A DNA stretch of 64,000 bases, taken from Dehalococcoidia bacterium (GTDB taxonomy: Bacteria > Chloroflexota > Dehalococcoidia > Plut-88900). Both the position numbers and the translations under genes were made by a program. The stretch's first letter is position 1. The number at the start of each line of letters is the position of its first letter. Positions 8,082 through 64,000 of this stretch are shown one piece after another. The stretch lies in the NCBI GenBank assembly GCA_965197675.1, contig OZ240221.1:2457637-2521636 (forward strand), written 5' to 3'. The notes under the pieces were generated by a model. That model was given only the letters and a program-made list of their open reading frames with translations, was not told where the DNA came from and ran no database searches.

Positions 8082-8165
8082 GTCCAGGCCACATCAGAGC
8101 TTGGCAGTTGTTTTTTTCACGTTGACACCACTGCCGAAATCCCCCACCTACAACACTCCTCTCCT

Positions 8166-8193
8166 GGATTCCCGTGTCAAGCACGGGAATGAC
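8166..8193. repeat. Dispersed hairpin repeat, family A (GGATTCCCGTGTCAAGCACGGGAATGAC).
   Basis: Perfect 9-bp stem ATTCCCGTG/CACGGGAAT with a 5-nt loop. Related copies at 63114..63141 and 63534..63561. Variants at 30270..30296 (inverted) and 63876..63903. Confidence 0.6.
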
Positions 8194-8229
8194 GATATGG
8201 GAGGTGAGGGCACCCTTCGACAAGGTCTG

Positions 8230-8400
8230 GGTGAGCGGAGACGCCTCAACCTTCGCTCATGGTGAGCTTAGAGTTTATCCTGATCCCACCGGGGGAACTA
8301 CATGGGCGGGGCTGATACCCAGTCGGCCCCGCTCATACCCTTATCGAGTAGGGGGCAGGCTCTAACCCTCCTCCCAAGGGAAAAGGAGCCGTGGAATCCA
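8230..8400. repeat. Composite MITE-like dispersed repeat (family C core GGTGAGCGGAGACGCCTCA...CTCATGGTGAGCTTAGAGTTTATCCTGA plus downstream modules).
   Basis: Homologous blocks at 47129..47290 in the same orientation, 30060..30234 inverted, and a partial block at 58358..58415 inverted. Confidence 0.6.
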
Positions 8401-24840: not shown

Positions 24841-25125
24841 GATTCCCCACCTCCAACCATTTCCCTCAGAGATAGGGTTGGAGTGAGGGTGAAGGCCTCC
24901 GTCCGTCCTTCTCGTGAAAACTGAACCCCATGTGAGGGGCGGGGGAGACATTCACCCTGTGCAACACCCGCCCCAGAAGCCCCCACATACAAAAACCTAT
25001 CGGAGTGGATGGGCCCAAGGCCTTTGCCTTTCTGAGACAGGCTCTCTGACCTTCTCCCGAGGGAAAAGGAGCCGGGGAATTTTGAAGGCGCGGCCGACCA
25101 GGCACAGTGGTCGTATCAATACGGA
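24841..25125. repeat. Intergenic dispersed-repeat cluster (family B core CCCAAGGCCTTTGCCTTTCTGAGACAGGCTC at 25014..25044, plus GGGAAAAGGAGCC module).
   Basis: Family B copies at 26453..26483 and 47251..47281. The CCCCACCTCCAAC module is shared with 47083..47100. Confidence 0.5.
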
Positions 25126-30059: not shown

Positions 30060-30300
30060 TCCTTTCCTCCCGGGGGAAAGTTACACCCTGCCCCCTACTC
30101 GATACGGAGATGAGCAGGGCCGGCTGGGGTATCAGCCCCGCTCATGTGGTTCCCTTCGGCAAACTCAGGATAAACTCTTGGCTCACCATGAGCGAGAGCT
30201 GAGGCGTCTCCGCTCACCCTGAGCTTGTCGAAGGAAATGAGCGGGGACTCCCACTCGGTTCCATCCACCCCCCTCTCCCGTCATTCCCGCCTCCGAGCGG
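30060..30300. repeat. Composite dispersed repeat: inverted-orientation copy of the family C/D modules plus a hairpin family A variant.
   Basis: 30164..30234 is the reverse complement of the 8230..8283 and 47129..47188 element. 30270..30296 is GTCATTCCCGCCTCCGAGCGGGAATCC. Confidence 0.55.
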
Positions 30301-30409
30301 GAATCCATCCCCCACTCCTAGCCTATTGTGCTATTTGACCATATACGAAATAAGAACGTACGTGCGATAATACAAATACACATCTCACTTAGAAGGAGGT
30401 ATCACCCCT

Positions 30410-30727
30410 ATGCCTCACGGAGGCCGTCGCCCAGGAGCAGGCGCTCCCAAGGGTAACCTGAACGGACTCAAGCACGGGCGCAACTCTCGCCGGTTTCAAG
30501 AGCTTGCCAACGCCCTCGCTGAACCTCCCGAGGCCGCGACATTATTCTTGCCTATCACCGCCGCCAGCAACGTAAGGCCCACCGCGCCCGCCGCACCGCT
30601 CGCCTCCTCTTCTCCCAACTCATACCCCAACCTGATGAAAAACTCAATCAAGATTAACGACATCTTCATGCCTGGAAAACCCGCAAAACAAAAGTTTTTT
30701 TATAACTCAATCAAGTTTCAAAGCTAA
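30410..30727 (+). CDS. Small basic protein, hypothetical. The C-terminal third is encoded by the ~132-bp dispersed repeat.
   Basis: Strong SD AAGGAGGT 9 nt before the ATG. N-terminus MPHGGRRPGAGAPKGNLNGLKHGRNSRR is Gly/Arg/Lys-rich. AT-rich upstream region. Confidence 0.45.
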   Translation: MPHGGRRPGAGAPKGNLNGLKHGRNSRRFQELANALAEPPEAATLFLPITAASNVRPTAPAAPLASSSPNSYPNLMKNSIKINDIFMPGKPAKQKFFYNSIKFQS

Positions 30728-30768
30728 ACGGAAAGGACAATCAAGTTCCACGCACAAACCAAGTCGGG
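30637..30768 (-). repeat. Dispersed repeat, ~132 bp, with TTGATTGA iterons. Copy 1, in reverse orientation relative to copy 2 at 63206..63367.
   Basis: Reverse complement aligns at roughly 85-90% identity with 63206..63367. Contains 3 AAYTTGATTG(A/T)G-like motifs and a GGGTTTTCCAGGCAYGAAG core. Confidence 0.7.
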
Positions 30769-30823
30769 CAATAGTGCAGGGCAATCGCATTTAGACCAGA
30801 ACCAAGATGCAAGAACCAGAGAT

Positions 30824-32380
30824 TCATCCTTCGACCAACTCTTTGATAGCTTTGGGGAGGATGGACAAAAGATCGCTGGCCAACATACCGGCGTTGCCCA
30901 TCTGCTCTCTGACTCTCTCGCCGGCCAGACCGTGAAGATATACGCCGCAGCACGCCGCGTACCATGGCTCCAGACCTTGAGCCATCAACCCCGCTATGAC
31001 TCCGGCCAGCACATCTCCAGTGCCCGCCGACGCCAGTCCTGGATTGGCGAAGGGGCTCAACATGGCGCAACCATCGGGTTTTGCTACCACAGTGTAGGCT
31101 CCCTTCAGCAGCACTACTTTTCCCCACCGGTGAGCCGCCTCCCTGGCGATGCCGATCCGGTCCGACTGCACCTCTCTACTGGACACGCCTAAGAGTCGCG
31201 CCATCTCTCCTGGATGAGGGGTTAACACCGAAGCATCGCTGAGTCGTTCCCACCACTTGGGATACTCGGCTAGGGCATTCAGACCGTCGGCATCTACTAG
31301 AAGTGGCACTCGCCTTGTATCGCCCTCGACTAGCAGCTTGTGCACCAGTTTCTTGGTGTTTGGTTCCTGGCCCAACCCACACCCCAGCAGCAAGGCCTGG
31401 ACGTCGAGAAGCTGGGACTGTATAAGAGGAATCGCGTCGCTGCGAGGAACTCCTGGGCTTTCCTCGGGCAGTAGTACGTAAGTTACCTCAGTTAGCTTGG
31501 AGGCTAATATGGGCTGAAGGCTGGTGGTGCACGCCAGAGTAACCAGCCCAGCACCCACCCTTGCTGCCCCTTCACAAGCAAGATACGCCGCGCCTATGTA
31601 GCTGATGGAGCCGGCCACTGCCAGCACCCTGCCGAAAGTACCTTTGTGGGAATCTGGGAGCCTAGTAGGCATCTGATCTCCTATCCAAGATGGAGTCATC
31701 AGCTCCAAGCATATGTTACGCCCTAGATCCTCCGGAATCCCGATGTCCGCTACCACCATCTCACCCACCGAACTAGCCCCGGGAAAGGTGAACAGCCCCA
31801 CTTTGGGATATCCGAGAGTCACGGTTACGTCGGCATCGAGGCAGGCTGAGTCCGCAGCTCCCGAATTAGCATCAAGCCCAGAGGGTAGATCGAGCGCGAT
31901 TATCTTCTTACCGGGAGACTCCTGTATCGACCTCTGAACCGCGGTAAGAATCTCTTTCAGGACACCCTCGATAGACCTAGACCTACCTGTACCCAACACG
32001 GCATCAATCACTATCTCGGCGGTGTCCAGAATCCCATTCAGTCTTTCAAACCCGGAGTCTTGGTAACCATGTACAGGCTGCAGATCTCGGGCAAGTAGAA
32101 GTTCCAGGTTGGAATCAGCCTTAGCTCGGGGGGTGCACAAATAGACGTATACATTCGCGCCCCAGTCATGGAGATACCTGGCAGCTACGAGACCATCCCC
32201 ACCATTGTTACCAGACCCTACCAGCACGGCTATGTGACTTCCCGTCACCCCTCCCATACGCTCGCGCACCTCCTCGGCAAAGGCAAGGCCGGCATTCTCC
32301 ATGAGTTGATGAGTGGAGATGCCTGTCTTAGAAGAGAGCTCTTCCAACTCTCGCATCTCTTCGCTGGTGACAATCTTCAT
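30824..32380 (-). CDS. nnr: Bifunctional NAD(P)H-hydrate repair enzyme (epimerase/ADP-dependent dehydratase).
   Basis: YjeF-N domain (VLVGSGNNGGDG) plus a C-terminal carbohydrate-kinase-like domain (GAGLASAGTGDVLAG). Confidence 0.85.
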   Translation of the reverse strand: MKIVTSEEMRELEELSSKTGISTHQLMENAGLAFAEEVRERMGGVTGSHIAVLVGSGNNGGDGLVAARYLHDWGANVYVYLCTPRAKADSNLELLLARDLQPVHGYQDSGFERLNGILDTAEIVIDAVLGTGRSRSIEGVLKEILTAVQRSIQESPGKKIIALDLPSGLDANSGAADSACLDADVTVTLGYPKVGLFTFPGASSVGEMVVADIGIPEDLGRNICLELMTPSWIGDQMPTRLPDSHKGTFGRVLAVAGSISYIGAAYLACEGAARVGAGLVTLACTTSLQPILASKLTEVTYVLLPEESPGVPRSDAIPLIQSQLLDVQALLLGCGLGQEPNTKKLVHKLLVEGDTRRVPLLVDADGLNALAEYPKWWERLSDASVLTPHPGEMARLLGVSSREVQSDRIGIAREAAHRWGKVVLLKGAYTVVAKPDGCAMLSPFANPGLASAGTGDVLAGVIAGLMAQGLEPWYAACCGVYLHGLAGERVREQMGNAGMLASDLLSILPKAIKELVEG

Positions 32381-47082: not shown

Positions 47083-47290
47083 CCTCCAACACCCCTCCCC
47101 TTCGACTACACTCAGGGTAAACTTTAAGCTCAGGGTGAGCGGATGTCTCTTTTGACCCGCTCATGGTGAGCCTAGAGTTTATCCTGAGTTCCCCGAAGGG
47201 AACCATTTGAGCGAGCGGGGGTACAACCAACCCCGGAGCGGACGAGTGAGCCCAAGGCCTTTGCCTTTCTGGGACAGGCTCCACGTGGGA
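47083..47290. repeat. Composite dispersed-repeat cluster (family C element 47129..47188, family D module, family B 47251..47281).
   Basis: Blocks homologous to 8230..8335, 30121..30234 (inverted), 25014..25044 and 26453..26483. Confidence 0.55.
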
Positions 47291-58246: not shown

Positions 58247-58357
58247 TTTATATTACGTTAAGCAATGCAATTTATGGTTGATCTATGCTCCATCCCTTCA
58301 ATTCGATTGTATGAGAAGGGATTATAGCTGTCAACGCGACTGATTCTCCGAAATTCG

Positions 58358-58415
58358 CCGGCTCCTTTTCCCTCAAGGGTTGAGGTGTCTCCGCTCACCC
58401 TAAGCCTGTCGAAGG
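58358..58415. repeat. Partial inverted copy of dispersed repeat family C (TGAGGTGTCTCCGCTCACCCTAAGC) plus GCTCCTTTTCCCTCAAGGG module.
   Basis: Reverse complement matches the 5' part of the 8230..8283 and 30190..30234 elements. Confidence 0.5.
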
Positions 58416-58667
58416 GTACCCTCACTCCAGTCCTCTCCCCCAGGGAAAGGGTGTTGGGGATGGGGAACCTAGGTATCCGCATTTCGGTTGACACGATTAG
58501 TCAATTTTGATACCCTCGAACTAACGTTGTGGGGGAGTTTCACCGCCTTTAACACCCTCGGTTGTTCACACATCCATCACTCTTTATCTACGCTCTCTTC
58601 GTCCTCACGACCATCCACACCGAGGCGAGAAGAAGCGGTATGCTGGAAATGGAGGGGCTTCTAGCGA

Positions 58668-63070: not shown

Positions 63071-63198
63071 CTCCCGTGGAAATCGGGAATGCGAATCCAG
63101 AGGATGGGGAGATGGATTCCCGTGTCAAGCACGAGAATGACGGAAAAGAGGATGGCAGGGGAATGACCGAAAGGGGGGCACGGGAATGACGGGTGGGG
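63071..63198. repeat. Cluster of hairpin family A copies and GGGAATGAC half-sites.
   Basis: 63114..63141 is GGATTCCCGTGTCAAGCACGAGAATGAC. Further GGGAATGAC motifs at 63160 and 63183. Confidence 0.55.
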
Positions 63199-63205
63199 TA
63201 AAAGT

Positions 63206-63367
63206 CCCGACTGGGTTTGTGTGTGGAACTTGATTGTGTTTTCTGTTTAGCTTTGAAATTTGATTGAATTTTCTGGTCCACGCTCAAACTTGATTGAGTT
63301 GTAAAAAAAGTTTTATTTTCGGGGTTTTCCAGGCACGAAGATCCAGTTAATTTTGATTGAGCTTTTC
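63206..63367 (+). repeat. Dispersed repeat of about 162 bp with TTGATTGA iterons. Copy 2, carrying a ~30-bp internal duplication relative to copy 1.
   Basis: Aligns with the reverse complement of 30637..30768. Four AAYTTGATTG-type motifs at about 63226, 63256, 63287 and 63349. Confidence 0.7.
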
Positions 63368-63533
63368 TCGGGTTGTAGTTTAACCCACCCGACCGCCCAG
63401 ATATGTAGCTCTTGGGGACACAGCCCCCAAACCCCCAGGCAAAGGGGCGATGCCCCTTTGCAATCCCCACGGACAACAAGGAGTCCTCCACAGAGGAGGC
63501 TGGCATGCTACCTGTCGGCAACAGACAGACCCT

Positions 63534-63589
63534 GGATTCCCGTGTCAAGCACGAGAATGACAGAAAAGAGGAGGCAGGGGAATGACCTG
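63534..63589. repeat. Hairpin family A copy with conserved 3' extension (…GAAAAGAGGAGGCAGGGGAATGACC).
   Basis: Near-identical to 63114..63170. Confidence 0.55.
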
Positions 63590-63875
63590 CCTGCAGCAGG
63601 CGGGAAGGAAGGGGTGTGGGGGCGCCCCAGGGCCGGGTGGGCGGACGCTTTGGATTCTTCGCTTCGCTCAGAATGACGCGCTCTTGAAACTGGGGAGGGT
63701 TGCGGCCATGTTTGAGTCCGTTCAGGGTGTCCTTGGGGGTGGCTGGGGTTGGACGACGACCTCCGTGGGAATTAAGAATGATACCTCCTTGTAGTGAGGT
63801 GTTTACTTATAGTATAGCACGTAGGTTCTCATTCTATATATGGCCTCGTGGCACAACAGGCTAGGTGTGTCTACT

Positions 63876-63903
63876 GGATTGCTGTGTCAGGCACAGGAAT
63901 TAC
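63876..63903. repeat. Degenerate hairpin family A variant (GGATTGCTGTGTCAGGCACAGGAATTAC).
   Basis: Same architecture: stem CTGTG / CACAG around a TCAGG loop. Confidence 0.35.
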
Positions 63904-64000
63904 CTGTGGGGGCAGGGTTCCGTTAAAGCTGGTTTTGACCAGTATTCGGTTGTACAGTATGATGGGTGGACGTCCAGCTATGGTCCGGTGGGAGGCATGG

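What the first reader, a model, noticed from the sequence alone, without database searches (positions are those of the whole stretch)
30637..30768. Dispersed element carrying TTGATTGA iterons (~132 bp here, ~162 bp with an internal duplication), present as two inverted copies 32.5 kb apart
The reverse complement of 30637..30768 aligns at roughly 85-90% identity with 63206..63367. Both copies contain 3-4 repeats of AAYTTGATTG(A/T)G spaced about 30 bp apart, a poly-A/T palindrome (GTAAAAAAAGTTTTATTTT) and a conserved GGGTTTTCCAGGCAYGAAG core. Copy 2 carries a ~30-bp internal tandem duplication, giving an extra iteron.

The iteron-like periodicity suggests repeated binding sites for a DNA-binding protein, or a structured small RNA or MITE. 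The inverted arrangement could support recombinational inversion of the intervening 32.5-kb housekeeping segment.
Basis: seen in the sequence. Interest (0 to 1): 0.55.

Follow-up and report, generated by a model that had tools for sequence, protein, structure and literature searches.

The report
Decayed small-gene cassette with heptamer array
The two inverted repeats are the tail ends of worn-out copies of a small phage-type (terminase-like) gene cassette. Its hallmark is a row of CAATCAA heptamers that sits beside this gene in dozens of Chloroflexota genomes and is probably the protein's docking site on DNA.

Summary
30637-30768(+) matches 63367-63206(-) at 116/132 positions (88%), with one 30-nt indel. 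It is only the 3' third of a larger repeated unit, 30318-30768 and 63870-63206. The unit holds a promoter-like region with a palindromic box, an RBS, a small gene (MPHGGRRPGAGAPKGNLNGLKHG...) and then the "iterons".

Both window copies of the gene are broken. Copy 1 has a 1-nt frameshift. Copy 2 has no ATG, and its mid-gene is replaced by REP-like DNA. At least two more copies lie elsewhere in the same 2.88-Mb genome.

The gene belongs to an unannotated family with 941 cluster representatives, mostly Chloroflexota/Dehalococcoidia among the loci retrieved. Its invariant N-terminal motif is shared with phage small terminases.

Across 66 loci the heptamer CAATCAA occurs 112 times on the coding strand 200-500 nt after the gene start and almost nowhere else. 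It appears in all three reading frames, inside and outside ORFs, and its spacings favour 10-11, 21 and 30-31 nt. It is therefore a nucleotide-level cis element.

Best reading: a phased DNA-binding array for the adjacent terminase-like protein, surviving here as relics that still look constrained. No Rfam family or stable RNA fold was found, no replication origin, and inversion is unlikely.

The parts
30318..30768 (+). Copy 1 (W1), the whole repeated unit: promoter-like region, small gene and heptamer array.
   Evidence: Aligned with copy 2 and with L160. The unit ends are shared: 5' CCTRTTGTGC, 3' CCARGTCG.
30353..30366 (+). Palindromic box AGAACGTACGTGCG, immediately before a -10-like GATAAT (30366-30371).
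   Evidence: One of only two matches to AGAACNNNNGTKCK in the window; the other is in copy 2. Similar boxes lie upstream of the small gene in L015, L021, L036, L039 and L048. The box is not family-wide.
30410..30727 (+). Small ORF as it stands (105 aa, identical to database protein P0002). RBS AAGGAGG lies at 30393-30399. Relative to homologues there is a 1-nt deletion near 30533-30536. In the homologous frame the gene would end at TAA 30655-30657.
   Evidence: The frame-corrected protein is 70% identical over 99% of its length to P0001. DNA comparison with L001.
30637..30768 (+). Heptamer array of copy 1 (the finding), with CAATCAA at 30645-30651, 30708-30714 and 30738-30744.
63206..63870 (-). 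Copy 2 (W2), the whole unit in decayed form.
63816..63829 (-). Palindromic box AGAACCTACGTGCT, followed by TATACT.
63680..63793 (-). Remnant of the RBS and the 5' part of the small gene. ATG has become AAT and the GAGAP codons are altered.
   Evidence: Inverted pair I2, 77%; sequence; alignment.
63400..63679 (-). REP-like insertions that replace about 130 nt of the middle of the gene. They begin with GTCATTCTGAGCGAAGCGAAGAATCC.
   Evidence: The same insertion is found at the same point in the related contig L160.
63206..63367 (-). Heptamer array of copy 2, with CAATCAA at 63353-63359, 63290-63296, 63260-63266 and 63230-63236 (read on the - strand).

Best explanation
The element is the cis-acting tail of a phage-derived cassette: promoter, then a small terminase-motif protein, then an array of CAATCAA heptamers.

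**Proposed mechanism (inferred, not shown).**
1. The protein has a disordered basic N-terminal arm (GGRRPGAGAPKGN) followed by a long helical hairpin. It oligomerises and docks on the phased heptamers of double-stranded DNA next to its own gene. This is how a small terminase recognises a pac/cos site, or a centromere-binding protein its iterons.
2. In intact relatives this would mark the locus for DNA packaging or control the adjacent phage structural operon.

**In this genome.** The cassette has become a dispersed, mostly gene-dead repeat with at least 4 copies. The heptamers are still better conserved than the rest of the unit. They may therefore still be bound in trans, by a protein from an intact copy or from a phage.

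**Shown:**
- the repeat itself and the larger unit;
- the gene family;
- the gene-heptamer linkage;
- frame-independence of the heptamer;
- the preferred spacings;
- the motif shared with small terminases.

**Inferred:**
- that the protein binds the heptamers;
- that the target is DNA rather than RNA;
- what follows from binding.
For: **Gene-heptamer linkage**
- CAATCAA occurs 112 times on the coding strand between +200 and +500 of the gene start across 66 loci. Other 100-nt bins hold 0-2, and the opposite strand has almost none.
- 52 of 61 loci have at least one heptamer and 32 have at least two.

**Nucleotide-level element, not coding**
- Heptamers lie in all three frames; 62 are inside ORFs and 51 outside.
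- Differences between copies show no codon periodicity. None of the 46 differences falls in a heptamer, where about 7 would be expected from the heptamers' share of positions.

**DNA-like phasing**
- After dereplication to 39 clusters, 21 of 41 spacings up to 70 nt fall within 1 nt of a multiple of 10.5. The expectation is 24% (p = 1.3e-4).
- L045 and L046 carry about 9 tandem units of about 10.5 nt.
- L063 has two reverse-oriented copies 31 nt apart upstream of the gene.

**The protein**
- The N-terminal motif is invariant.
- The AlphaFold model (pLDDT 80) shows a disordered arm followed by a helical hairpin.
- The motif matches small-terminase models: PHROG 9231/1889/509 and NCBIfam NF040601.
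- It also aligns with proteins that sit directly before TerL and portal in viral contigs. hhalign gives 96.8% and 95.9% probability. A phage homologue is annotated as a terminase small subunit.

**Phage context of some cassettes**
- A major capsid gene follows immediately in L004, L027 and L039. An SU10-type adaptor lies further on in L039.
- Capsid-gene stubs follow in L015, L021 and L052.
- A TerL-like fragment lies upstream in the L022 group.

**Self-contained cassette**
- The downstream neighbour is co-oriented in 35 loci and convergent in 24.

**Constraint in this lineage**
- The array is 88-92% identical among W1, W2 and L160, against 76-82% for the 5' part.
Against: - No binding data exist.
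- Similarity to terminases is confined to a 17-35-residue motif and lies far below the family cut-offs: 16 bits against 120.
- BLAST found no intact TerL or portal within about 4 kb of any Chloroflexota locus; only the fragment upstream of L022 matched.
- Five of the 41 spacings are 8 nt, which is out of helical phase.
- In the capsid-linked subfamily a heptamer fills the Shine-Dalgarno-to-ATG spacer of the capsid gene. That fits RNA-level translational control at least as well.
- The strand bias is uninformative, because all the cassettes are homologous.
- Both window genes are broken, and no intact copy is known in this genome. The arrays here may simply be young relics.
- The structure search found no informative fold match.
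Confidence: 0.45

Rival explanations
1. RNA-level element. The CAAUCAA motifs act in the transcript, either in the 3' part of the small gene's mRNA or in the leader of the next gene. They would form an unstructured A/C-rich platform bound by the small basic protein or another factor, controlling translation of the downstream gene (originally the capsid gene) or mRNA fate.
For: - In the capsid-linked subfamily the layout is [T/C]AATCAA - N8-11 - AGGAG - ga - CAATCAA - ATG(capsid). One heptamer therefore fills the SD-ATG spacer (L039, L021, L052; near-variants in L004, L015, L027).
- The last two heptamers of W1 and L002 also flank an AGGA(G).
- The motif is almost always on the sense strand.
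- The sense strand is C>G and A>T skewed. It folds no better than shuffled sequence, so it would be accessible.
Against: - Spacings cluster at 10-11, 21 and 30-31 nt, and the 9-unit arrays have a 10.5-nt period. RNA binding has no reason to follow the DNA helical repeat.
- Reverse-oriented copies exist (L063 and others).
- About 40% of cassettes face a convergent gene, so there is no downstream gene to control.
- The SD-spacer arrangement comes from one related subfamily and so counts as a single evolutionary instance.
- The C>G skew covers the whole cassette, not only the array.
Confidence: 0.25
2. Operator / upstream-activating sites of a transcription regulator. The small protein would be a late-operon regulator in the manner of RinA-type phage activators or omega/ParR-type repressors, not a packaging protein. 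The heptamers would position it next to the promoter of the following genes.
For: - In L008, L018, L022 and L025 the two heptamers, 30 nt apart, lie just upstream of a conserved TTGCCC-N17-GATAAT promoter-like site and a co-oriented gene.
- In L014 and L044-L046 the arrays precede another promoter-like site.
- In L004 and L039 the cassette heads a capsid-adaptor operon.
- From my own knowledge, the omega repressor binds arrays of the similar heptad WATCACW.
Against: - There is no similarity to ribbon-helix-helix, HTH or known late-activator families at Pfam E <= 1.
- The only homology signal points to terminase small subunits.
- 24 of 59 loci have a convergent downstream gene.
- In many members the arrays lie inside the gene's own 3' coding end.
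Confidence: 0.15
3. Non-autonomous mobile element (MITE-like) or plain neutral relic. On this view the unit spreads or persists as junk, and the heptamers are only leftovers of a repeated peptide-coding segment (LNQ).
For: - There are at least 4 copies in one genome, and a W2-type gene-dead copy sits in a different gene context in a related contig, with shared unit ends.
- The copies are embedded in REP-rich intergenic DNA.
- In P0001 the heptamers are read as LNQ / SNQ / TNQ within a predicted helix.
Against: - No convincing terminal inverted repeats or target duplications are visible at the ends (sequences; alignment). This was judged by eye only.
- The heptamer is translated in all three frames or lies outside ORFs across the family.
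- The heptamers are free of substitutions while the spacers vary.
- The array is more conserved than the dead gene.
- The gene-heptamer linkage spans 39 sequence clusters whose proteins are only about 40-60% identical to the window's protein.
Confidence: 0.1
4. Replication-origin-type iterons with an A/T-rich unwinding tract.
For: Direct repeats flank an A/T tract.
Against: - No Rep or DnaA gene is adjacent.
- Cumulative GC skew runs on without an inflection at either site.
- There are several copies per chromosome.
- The A/T tract is absent from related loci L001-L003.
- There was no plasmid match.
Confidence: 0.02

Closest known systems
Phage small terminase (TerS) with its pac/cos recognition site (for example P1 pac with phased hexamer repeats, SPP1 pacL/pacR, lambda Nu1-cosB; recalled from my own knowledge)
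   Same: - The N-terminal motif GG(R/K)RPGAGAPKGNxN is shared with proteins that sit directly before TerL and portal and with TerS profile models.
- It is a small, helical protein likely to oligomerise.
- The recognition repeats lie in or beside the gene, phased at about one helical turn.
- Some cassettes adjoin capsid, adaptor or TerL remnants.
   Different: - Scores are far below the family thresholds, and similarity is limited to the motif.
- There is no HTH domain.
- BLAST found no intact TerL or portal within about 4 kb in the Chloroflexota loci.
- The cassettes are solitary, with 1-4 per chromosome, and often lie among housekeeping genes.
- The two window copies examined are gene-dead.
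HTH-less small terminase of gene transfer agents (RcGTA gp1) and the packaging-redirecting TerS of phage satellites (SaPI/PICI); from my own knowledge
   Same: A short terminase-small-subunit-like protein encoded in the chromosome, away from a complete phage. It could mark host DNA for packaging.
   Different: - No GTA or satellite gene set was identified here (no integrase, primase or TerL).
- RcGTA packaging is not sequence-specific, whereas this family carries a very specific heptamer.
Centromere-binding or repressor proteins with iteron arrays (omega of pSM19035 with WATCACW heptads; ParR/parC 10-11-bp repeats; sopB-sopC); from my own knowledge
   Same: - A small protein with an adjacent array of short direct repeats.
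- A heptamer, AATCAA(A/G), one base away from the omega heptad.
- 10-11-bp periodic arrays.
   Different: - No ribbon-helix-helix or ParB signature was found.
- There is no partner ATPase.
- The family was not found on plasmids.
- The arrays lie downstream of the gene and are usually spaced rather than contiguous.
MITE / REP-type dispersed intergenic repeats
   Same: Multiple intergenic copies, most without a working gene, in different contexts and mixed with REP hairpins.
   Different: - The unit derives from a recognisable promoter-gene-array cassette.
- No clear terminal inverted repeats or target duplications were seen.
- The internal heptamers appear to be under selection.

Membership tests
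Terminase small subunit (NCBIfam NF040601; PHROG 9231/1889/509) | Whole-protein score at or above the family's curated cut-off | tested here: not met
   NF040601 scores about 16 bits against a cut-off of 120. Only profile positions 81-107, the motif, are matched. PHROG E-values run from 2.5e-4 to 0.03, again for the motif only.
Terminase small subunit | Gene located immediately upstream of the large terminase and portal genes | tested here: not met
   - Met for distant viral relatives L072, L078 and L079, and loosely for L071.
- Not met for the window or for the 68 Chloroflexota loci: tblastn with four TerL and three portal proteins found only a TerL-like fragment upstream of L022.
- BLAST could miss very divergent TerL.
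Terminase small subunit | Ring oligomer that binds a pac/cos site and recruits TerL | not testable with these tools
   The monomer model shows an arm followed by a long helical hairpin. No multimer or DNA-complex prediction or experiment was available.
MITE (non-autonomous transposon) | Terminal inverted repeats and target-site duplications | tested here: not met
   The ends compared in W1, W2 and L160 give only a weak CTG...TTGTG resemblance and no shared flanking duplication (sequences; alignment). This was judged by eye, and no statistical test was run.
MITE (non-autonomous transposon) | Many dispersed non-coding copies in different contexts | tested here: inconclusive
   At least 4 copies were inferred in the source genome from predicted proteins P0002, P0188 and P0195 plus W2. 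One more lies in a related contig with different neighbours. The complete genome could not be scanned.
Iteron-type replication origin | Adjacent initiator (Rep/DnaA) gene and a strand-composition switch | tested here: not met
   The neighbours are coaBC, coaX, an NAD(P)HX epimerase/dehydratase, acpS, valS and lepA, named from their translations. There is no GC-skew inflection.
Known structured RNA families (Rfam 15) | Covariance-model match | tested here: not met
   There were no matches at gathering score for the whole window and none at E <= 1 for 30250-30850. The folds are not more stable than shuffles.
Ribbon-helix-helix / ParB-type centromere-binding proteins | Pfam domain match | tested here: not met
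   There were no Pfam families at E <= 1 for the window protein in either frame version. The PDB profile search gave nothing relevant.
SOS (LexA)-regulated genes, GAAC-N4-GTTC box | Box enriched upstream of family members | tested here: not met
   A GAAC-N4-GT(G/T)C palindrome lies before the -10 in W1, W2, L015, L021, L036, L039 and L048. There is no family-wide enrichment over background.

The most novel reading that the evidence does not exclude
Chloroflexota chromosomes carry a previously undescribed module: an HTH-less, terminase-derived mini-protein plus a helically phased CAATCAA array. The module would act as dispersed, sequence-specific packaging-initiation or centromere-like sites on the host chromosome. 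For example, it could mark loci for transfer by helper phage or GTA-like particles. Selection would keep the arrays even where the local gene has died.
Probability: 0.15. Interest if true: 0.75.

Novelty: new variant of a known kind. Interest (0 to 1): 0.5.

Why it matters
**What was found**
- The family has 941 cluster representatives at 50% identity.
- It has no Pfam, Rfam or literature record that I could find.
- It offers an unusually clean, predicted protein-site pair: an invariant 20-residue arm and an invariant heptamer that travel together.

**If the protein binds the array**
- It would give a simple, directly testable model for how an HTH-less terminase-type protein reads DNA.
- It would show how phage packaging modules are domesticated or decay in Dehalococcoidia, which from my own knowledge has few described phages or genetic tools.

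**For this window taken alone**
- The practical message is modest. The "iterons" are remnants of that cassette.
- They are not an origin, not a riboswitch-like RNA, and not a likely inversion switch.

Tried and rejected
- **Known RNA families.** Rfam at gathering score on the whole window, and at E <= 1 on copy 1, gave nothing.
- **RNA folding.** Folding both strands of both copies gave no stability beyond shuffled sequence. I did not build a covariance model because there was no structure to model.
- **Protein fold and solved structures.** Foldseek of the AlphaFold model against the PDB gave only generic helical hits with E > 2. The PDB sequence-profile search gave nothing relevant.
- **Phage and plasmid collections.** DNA and protein searches of the phage collection with the window unit and with P0001, and a protein search of the plasmid collection, found no match.
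- **Metagenome scans.** Two exact-pattern scans, for the core 21-mer and for an iteron pair, found no match.
- **Contig look-ups.** The look-up of encoding contigs for P0002 and P0188 found nothing on record. The source genome could not be retrieved, so the full copy census and the inversion test were impossible.
- **LexA-box idea.** The box occurs only in a subset and is not enriched family-wide.
- **"Heptamer belongs to the capsid gene's leader" idea.** Rejected. 80 viral contigs carry the same capsid family but have neither the small gene nor the heptamer upstream.
- **IHF site (WATCAANNNNTTR).** Considered and rejected, because the flanking positions show no TTR.
- **16S rRNA complementarity.** Considered by eye only, and the geometry is implausible.
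- **Literature.** Searches for the motif and for Dehalococcoidia prophage packaging found nothing pertinent.
Full report
**1.

The + strand of 30637-30768 aligns with the - strand of 63367-63206 at 116 of 132 aligned positions (87.9%), with a single 30-nt indel. The longest uninterrupted identity is 15 nt. The core CTTCRTGCCTGGAAAACCC is found only at these two places, even with three mismatches allowed; 0.04 are expected by chance.

The short repeat is best described as the heptamer CAATCAA on the sense strand.
- Copy 1 has three, at 30645, 30708 and 30738.
- Copy 2 has four, read on the - strand from 63359, 63296, 63266 and 63236.
- The spacings are 63 and 30 nt in copy 1, and 63, 30 and 30 nt in copy 2.
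- Together these are 7 of the 13 heptamers in the 64-kb window.

**2. The described element is only the tail of a larger unit**

A second inverted pair, 30390-30503 / 63680-63793, is 77% complementary. Reading the flanks shows that homology runs from about 30318 to 30768 in copy 1 and from about 63870 to 63206 in copy 2.

The unit contains, in order:
- A promoter-like stretch with a palindromic box: AGAACGTACGTGCG at 30353-30366 and AGAACCTACGTGCT at 63829-63816. These are the only two matches to that pattern in the window.
- A strong RBS.
- A small ORF that starts MPHGGRRPGAGAPKGNLNGLKHGRNSRRFQE (30410-30727).
- The heptamer region.

Both window genes are damaged.
- Compared with its closest intact relative (P0001, locus L001), copy 1 lacks one base near 30533-30536. 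With that base restored, the protein is 70% identical to P0001 over 99% of its length and ends at TAA 30655-30657, just after the first heptamer.
- Copy 2 has AAT in place of ATG. About 130 nt of its mid-gene are replaced by about 280 nt of REP-like hairpin repeats.

**3. There are more copies**

The database protein identical to the copy-1 ORF (P0002) comes from a 2,882,203-bp contig.
- The same contig encodes P0188, a third copy. It has the same frameshifted reading frame and the extra 30-nt unit.
- The same contig also encodes P0195, a fourth copy with REP-like sequence followed by the array only.
- A 22.6-kb metagenome contig (L160) carries a copy built like copy 2. It has lost its start codon and has the same GTCATTCTGAGCGAAGCGAAGAATC insertion at the same point, but it lies between different genes (PspC-domain and luciferase-like).

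The three DNA copies share the same unit ends. I saw no convincing terminal inverted repeats or target duplications. In this lineage, then, a gene-dead version of the cassette has been propagated as a dispersed repeat.

**4. The array looks constrained even in dead copies**
- Among W1, W2 and L160 the array is 88-92% identical, while the promoter/5'-gene part is 76-82% identical.
- The 46 pairwise differences in the array spread evenly over the three codon positions, so the region is not evolving as coding sequence.
- None of the 46 falls inside a heptamer. From the heptamers' share of positions (about 15%) I estimate about 7 would be expected.

**5. The gene defines a large unannotated family**
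- A word-indexed search returned 48 relatives of roughly 75-150 aa.
- A profile search of 1.84 billion representatives found 941 at E <= 1e-3 and 541 at E <= 1e-10.
- No Pfam family matches at E <= 1.
- A scan of species-representative genomes returned 68 loci. Nearly all are from Chloroflexota/Dehalococcoidia MAGs, with 1-3 loci per genome.
- The N-terminal motif is invariant (G4 G5 R7 G9 A10 G11 A12 P13 G15 N16 N18 S26), while the rest diverges.
- The AlphaFold model of P0001 (mean pLDDT 80) shows a disordered arm (residues 1-20), a short helix and a long helical hairpin (40-73, 81-112). Foldseek found nothing specific.

**6. The heptamer is a family-wide cis element tied to the gene**
- With 66 loci aligned on the gene start, CAATCAA occurs 33, 51 and 28 times in the +200, +300 and +400 bins of the coding strand. 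Elsewhere there are 0-2 per bin, and the opposite strand has almost none. It is the most enriched 7-mer, at 97-fold.
- 52 of 61 loci have at least one heptamer and 32 have at least two.
- It is read in all three frames (as NQ, IK or QS). 62 heptamers lie inside called ORFs and 51 outside. Protein coding therefore cannot explain its conservation.
- The flanks are only weakly specified: TT before, A/G then C after.
- The heptamer stays the same across subfamilies whose proteins differ widely after the invariant arm.
- In the syntenic group L008/L018/L022/L025/L026 and their paralogue L012, the block heptamer-23 nt-heptamer is conserved while the flanks differ.

**7. DNA or RNA?**

Evidence for DNA:
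- After dereplication to 39 sequence clusters, spacings fall in classes of 8, 10-11, 21, 30-31, 54 and 63-66 nt.
- 21 of the 41 spacings up to 70 nt lie within 1 nt of a multiple of 10.5, against 24% expected (binomial p = 1.3e-4).
- L045 and L046 carry tandem arrays of about nine units with a period of about 10.5 nt.
- A few loci have reverse-oriented copies, for example two sites 31 nt apart upstream of the gene in L063.

Evidence for RNA:
- In the capsid-linked subfamily the layout is [T/C]AATCAA-N8-11-AGGAG-ga-CAATCAA-ATG, so a heptamer fills the SD-ATG spacer of the next gene.
- The last two heptamers of W1 and L002 also flank an AGGA(G).
- The sense strand is C- and A-rich and is not stably folded.

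I weigh the phasing more heavily. The SD arrangement comes from a single related subfamily. In addition, 24 of 59 cassettes face a convergent gene and so have nothing downstream to regulate. The question remains open.

**8. The link to phage packaging**
- The motif gives weak hits to terminase-small-subunit models, confined to the motif. These are PHROG 9231, 1889 and 509 and NCBIfam NF040601; the last scores 16 bits against a 120-bit cut-off.
- In viral contigs, proteins with the same motif occupy the TerS position:
  - L072, 305 aa, overlapping the start of a 597-aa TerL-position ORF (not run against any family library) that is followed by a portal-sized ORF. hhalign gives 96.8% probability over 35 columns. 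A Vibrio phage homologue is annotated as a terminase small subunit.
  - L079, 117 aa, directly before Terminase_3, a P22-type portal and a P22 coat protein. hhalign gives 95.9% over 17 columns.
  - L078 is similar.
  - L071 carries the motif protein about 1.2 kb before TerL and portal. It has two CAATCAA in its 65%-GC gene.
- Some Chloroflexota cassettes touch phage genes:
  - In L004, L027 and L039 the small gene is followed within about 25-100 nt by an HK97-type major capsid gene (phrog_212, E = 6e-71). An SU10-type adaptor lies further on in L039.
  - L015, L021 and L052 keep only 5' stubs of that capsid gene.
  - The L022 group and paralogue L012 share about 600 nt upstream. In L022 this region resembles the nuclease half of the L071 TerL (28% over 165 aa, E = 1.6e-8).
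- The capsid family on its own, in 80 viral contigs, lacks both the small gene and the heptamer. The heptamer therefore belongs with the small gene.
- DNA methyltransferase genes adjoin the cassette in about nine loci.

**9. Interpretation**

The best-supported account is a phage-derived cassette in which a terminase-motif mini-protein recognises a phased heptamer array beside its own gene. The window holds two decayed copies of this cassette.
- Shown: the linkage, the frame-independence of the heptamer, the preferred spacings and the motif homology.
- Inferred: binding itself, its target (DNA rather than RNA) and its consequence (packaging initiation rather than operon control).
- Membership in the TerS family is not established, because the cut-offs and the TerL adjacency were tested and not met.
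- The resemblance is strongest to TerS/pac systems. It is weaker to omega/ParR-type iteron binders.

**10.
- Structured RNA: no Rfam match and no stable fold.
- Replication origin: no initiator gene and no skew inflection.
- Inversion: 88% identity with at most 15 identical bases in a row makes homologous exchange unlikely. This could not be checked in other assemblies.

**11. Limits**
- The source genome could not be retrieved.
- The metagenome DNA scans found nothing.
- Neighbour-gene orientation rests on crude ORF calls in GC-rich DNA.
- Spacings within a single locus are not independent.
- All functional statements are inferences from sequence.

Noticed in passing
window 8165-8204, 30279-30308, 63113-63152, 63533-63572, 63875-63914; variant about 63655-63680: A family of REP-like hairpin repeats (GTCATTCC(C/T)GTG...CACGGGAATCCA). 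Copies lie just upstream of both cassette copies and inside the broken gene of copy 2. The same insertion is found in the related contig L160.
   Followed up: partly
window 8204-8397, 24856-25087, 30063-30234, 47158-47281, 58346-58462: Composite dispersed intergenic repeats, 80-93% identical in both orientations, with a CTGAGCYTGTCGAAGG core. The same core appears in unrelated Chloroflexota loci (L002, L021, L050, L052).
   Followed up: no
L045 4403-4498; L046 4404-4497: The largest arrays in the family: about nine tandem units of TTCAATCAAG with a period of about 10.5 nt (TRF periods of 10, 11, 21 and 42). They lie about 100 nt after the small gene's stop codon and are followed by a conserved promoter-like site.
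   Followed up: partly
L001 4863-5003: A 47-aa zinc-ribbon-like ORF (CPxxxC...CxxC) lies directly upstream of the small gene and overlaps its start (ATGA). A type IIG/ISP restriction-modification gene lies further upstream on the opposite strand.
   Followed up: no
L006, L011, L037, L050, L067; L016, L019, L031; L001: DNA methyltransferase or restriction-modification genes lie next to the cassette in about nine of the loci.
   Followed up: no
L022 3258-3920 and the equivalent regions of L008, L012, L018, L025, L026: About 600 nt upstream of the small gene is shared within this subfamily, paralogue L012 included. In L022 it resembles the nuclease half of a viral large terminase (28% over 165 aa).
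   Followed up: partly
upstream (-220 to -10) of the small gene in about 28 of 62 loci; window 30325-30340 and 63848-63863: TGCCAC/TGCCAT followed by a C-rich tract and a TTG... -35-like hexamer recurs upstream of the gene, at about 5-fold enrichment. This suggests a shared promoter architecture.
   Followed up: partly
L080-L159 (IMG/VR contigs): The HK97-type capsid gene that follows the cassette in L004, L027 and L039 has 62-75%-identical relatives on many viral contigs, most of them 4-13 kb. In the roughly 30 inspected, most follow a gene ending in ...LSPREKIQYAIGG.
   Followed up: no
L059 3575-3932 (- strand); also L061, L062: Very short, divergent family members (51-57 aa, no heptamers). 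In L059 the member lies head-on to a bacterial RNase P RNA gene (Rfam RF00010, 300 bits). L061 and L062 carry near-identical downstream sequence that was not scanned.
   Followed up: no
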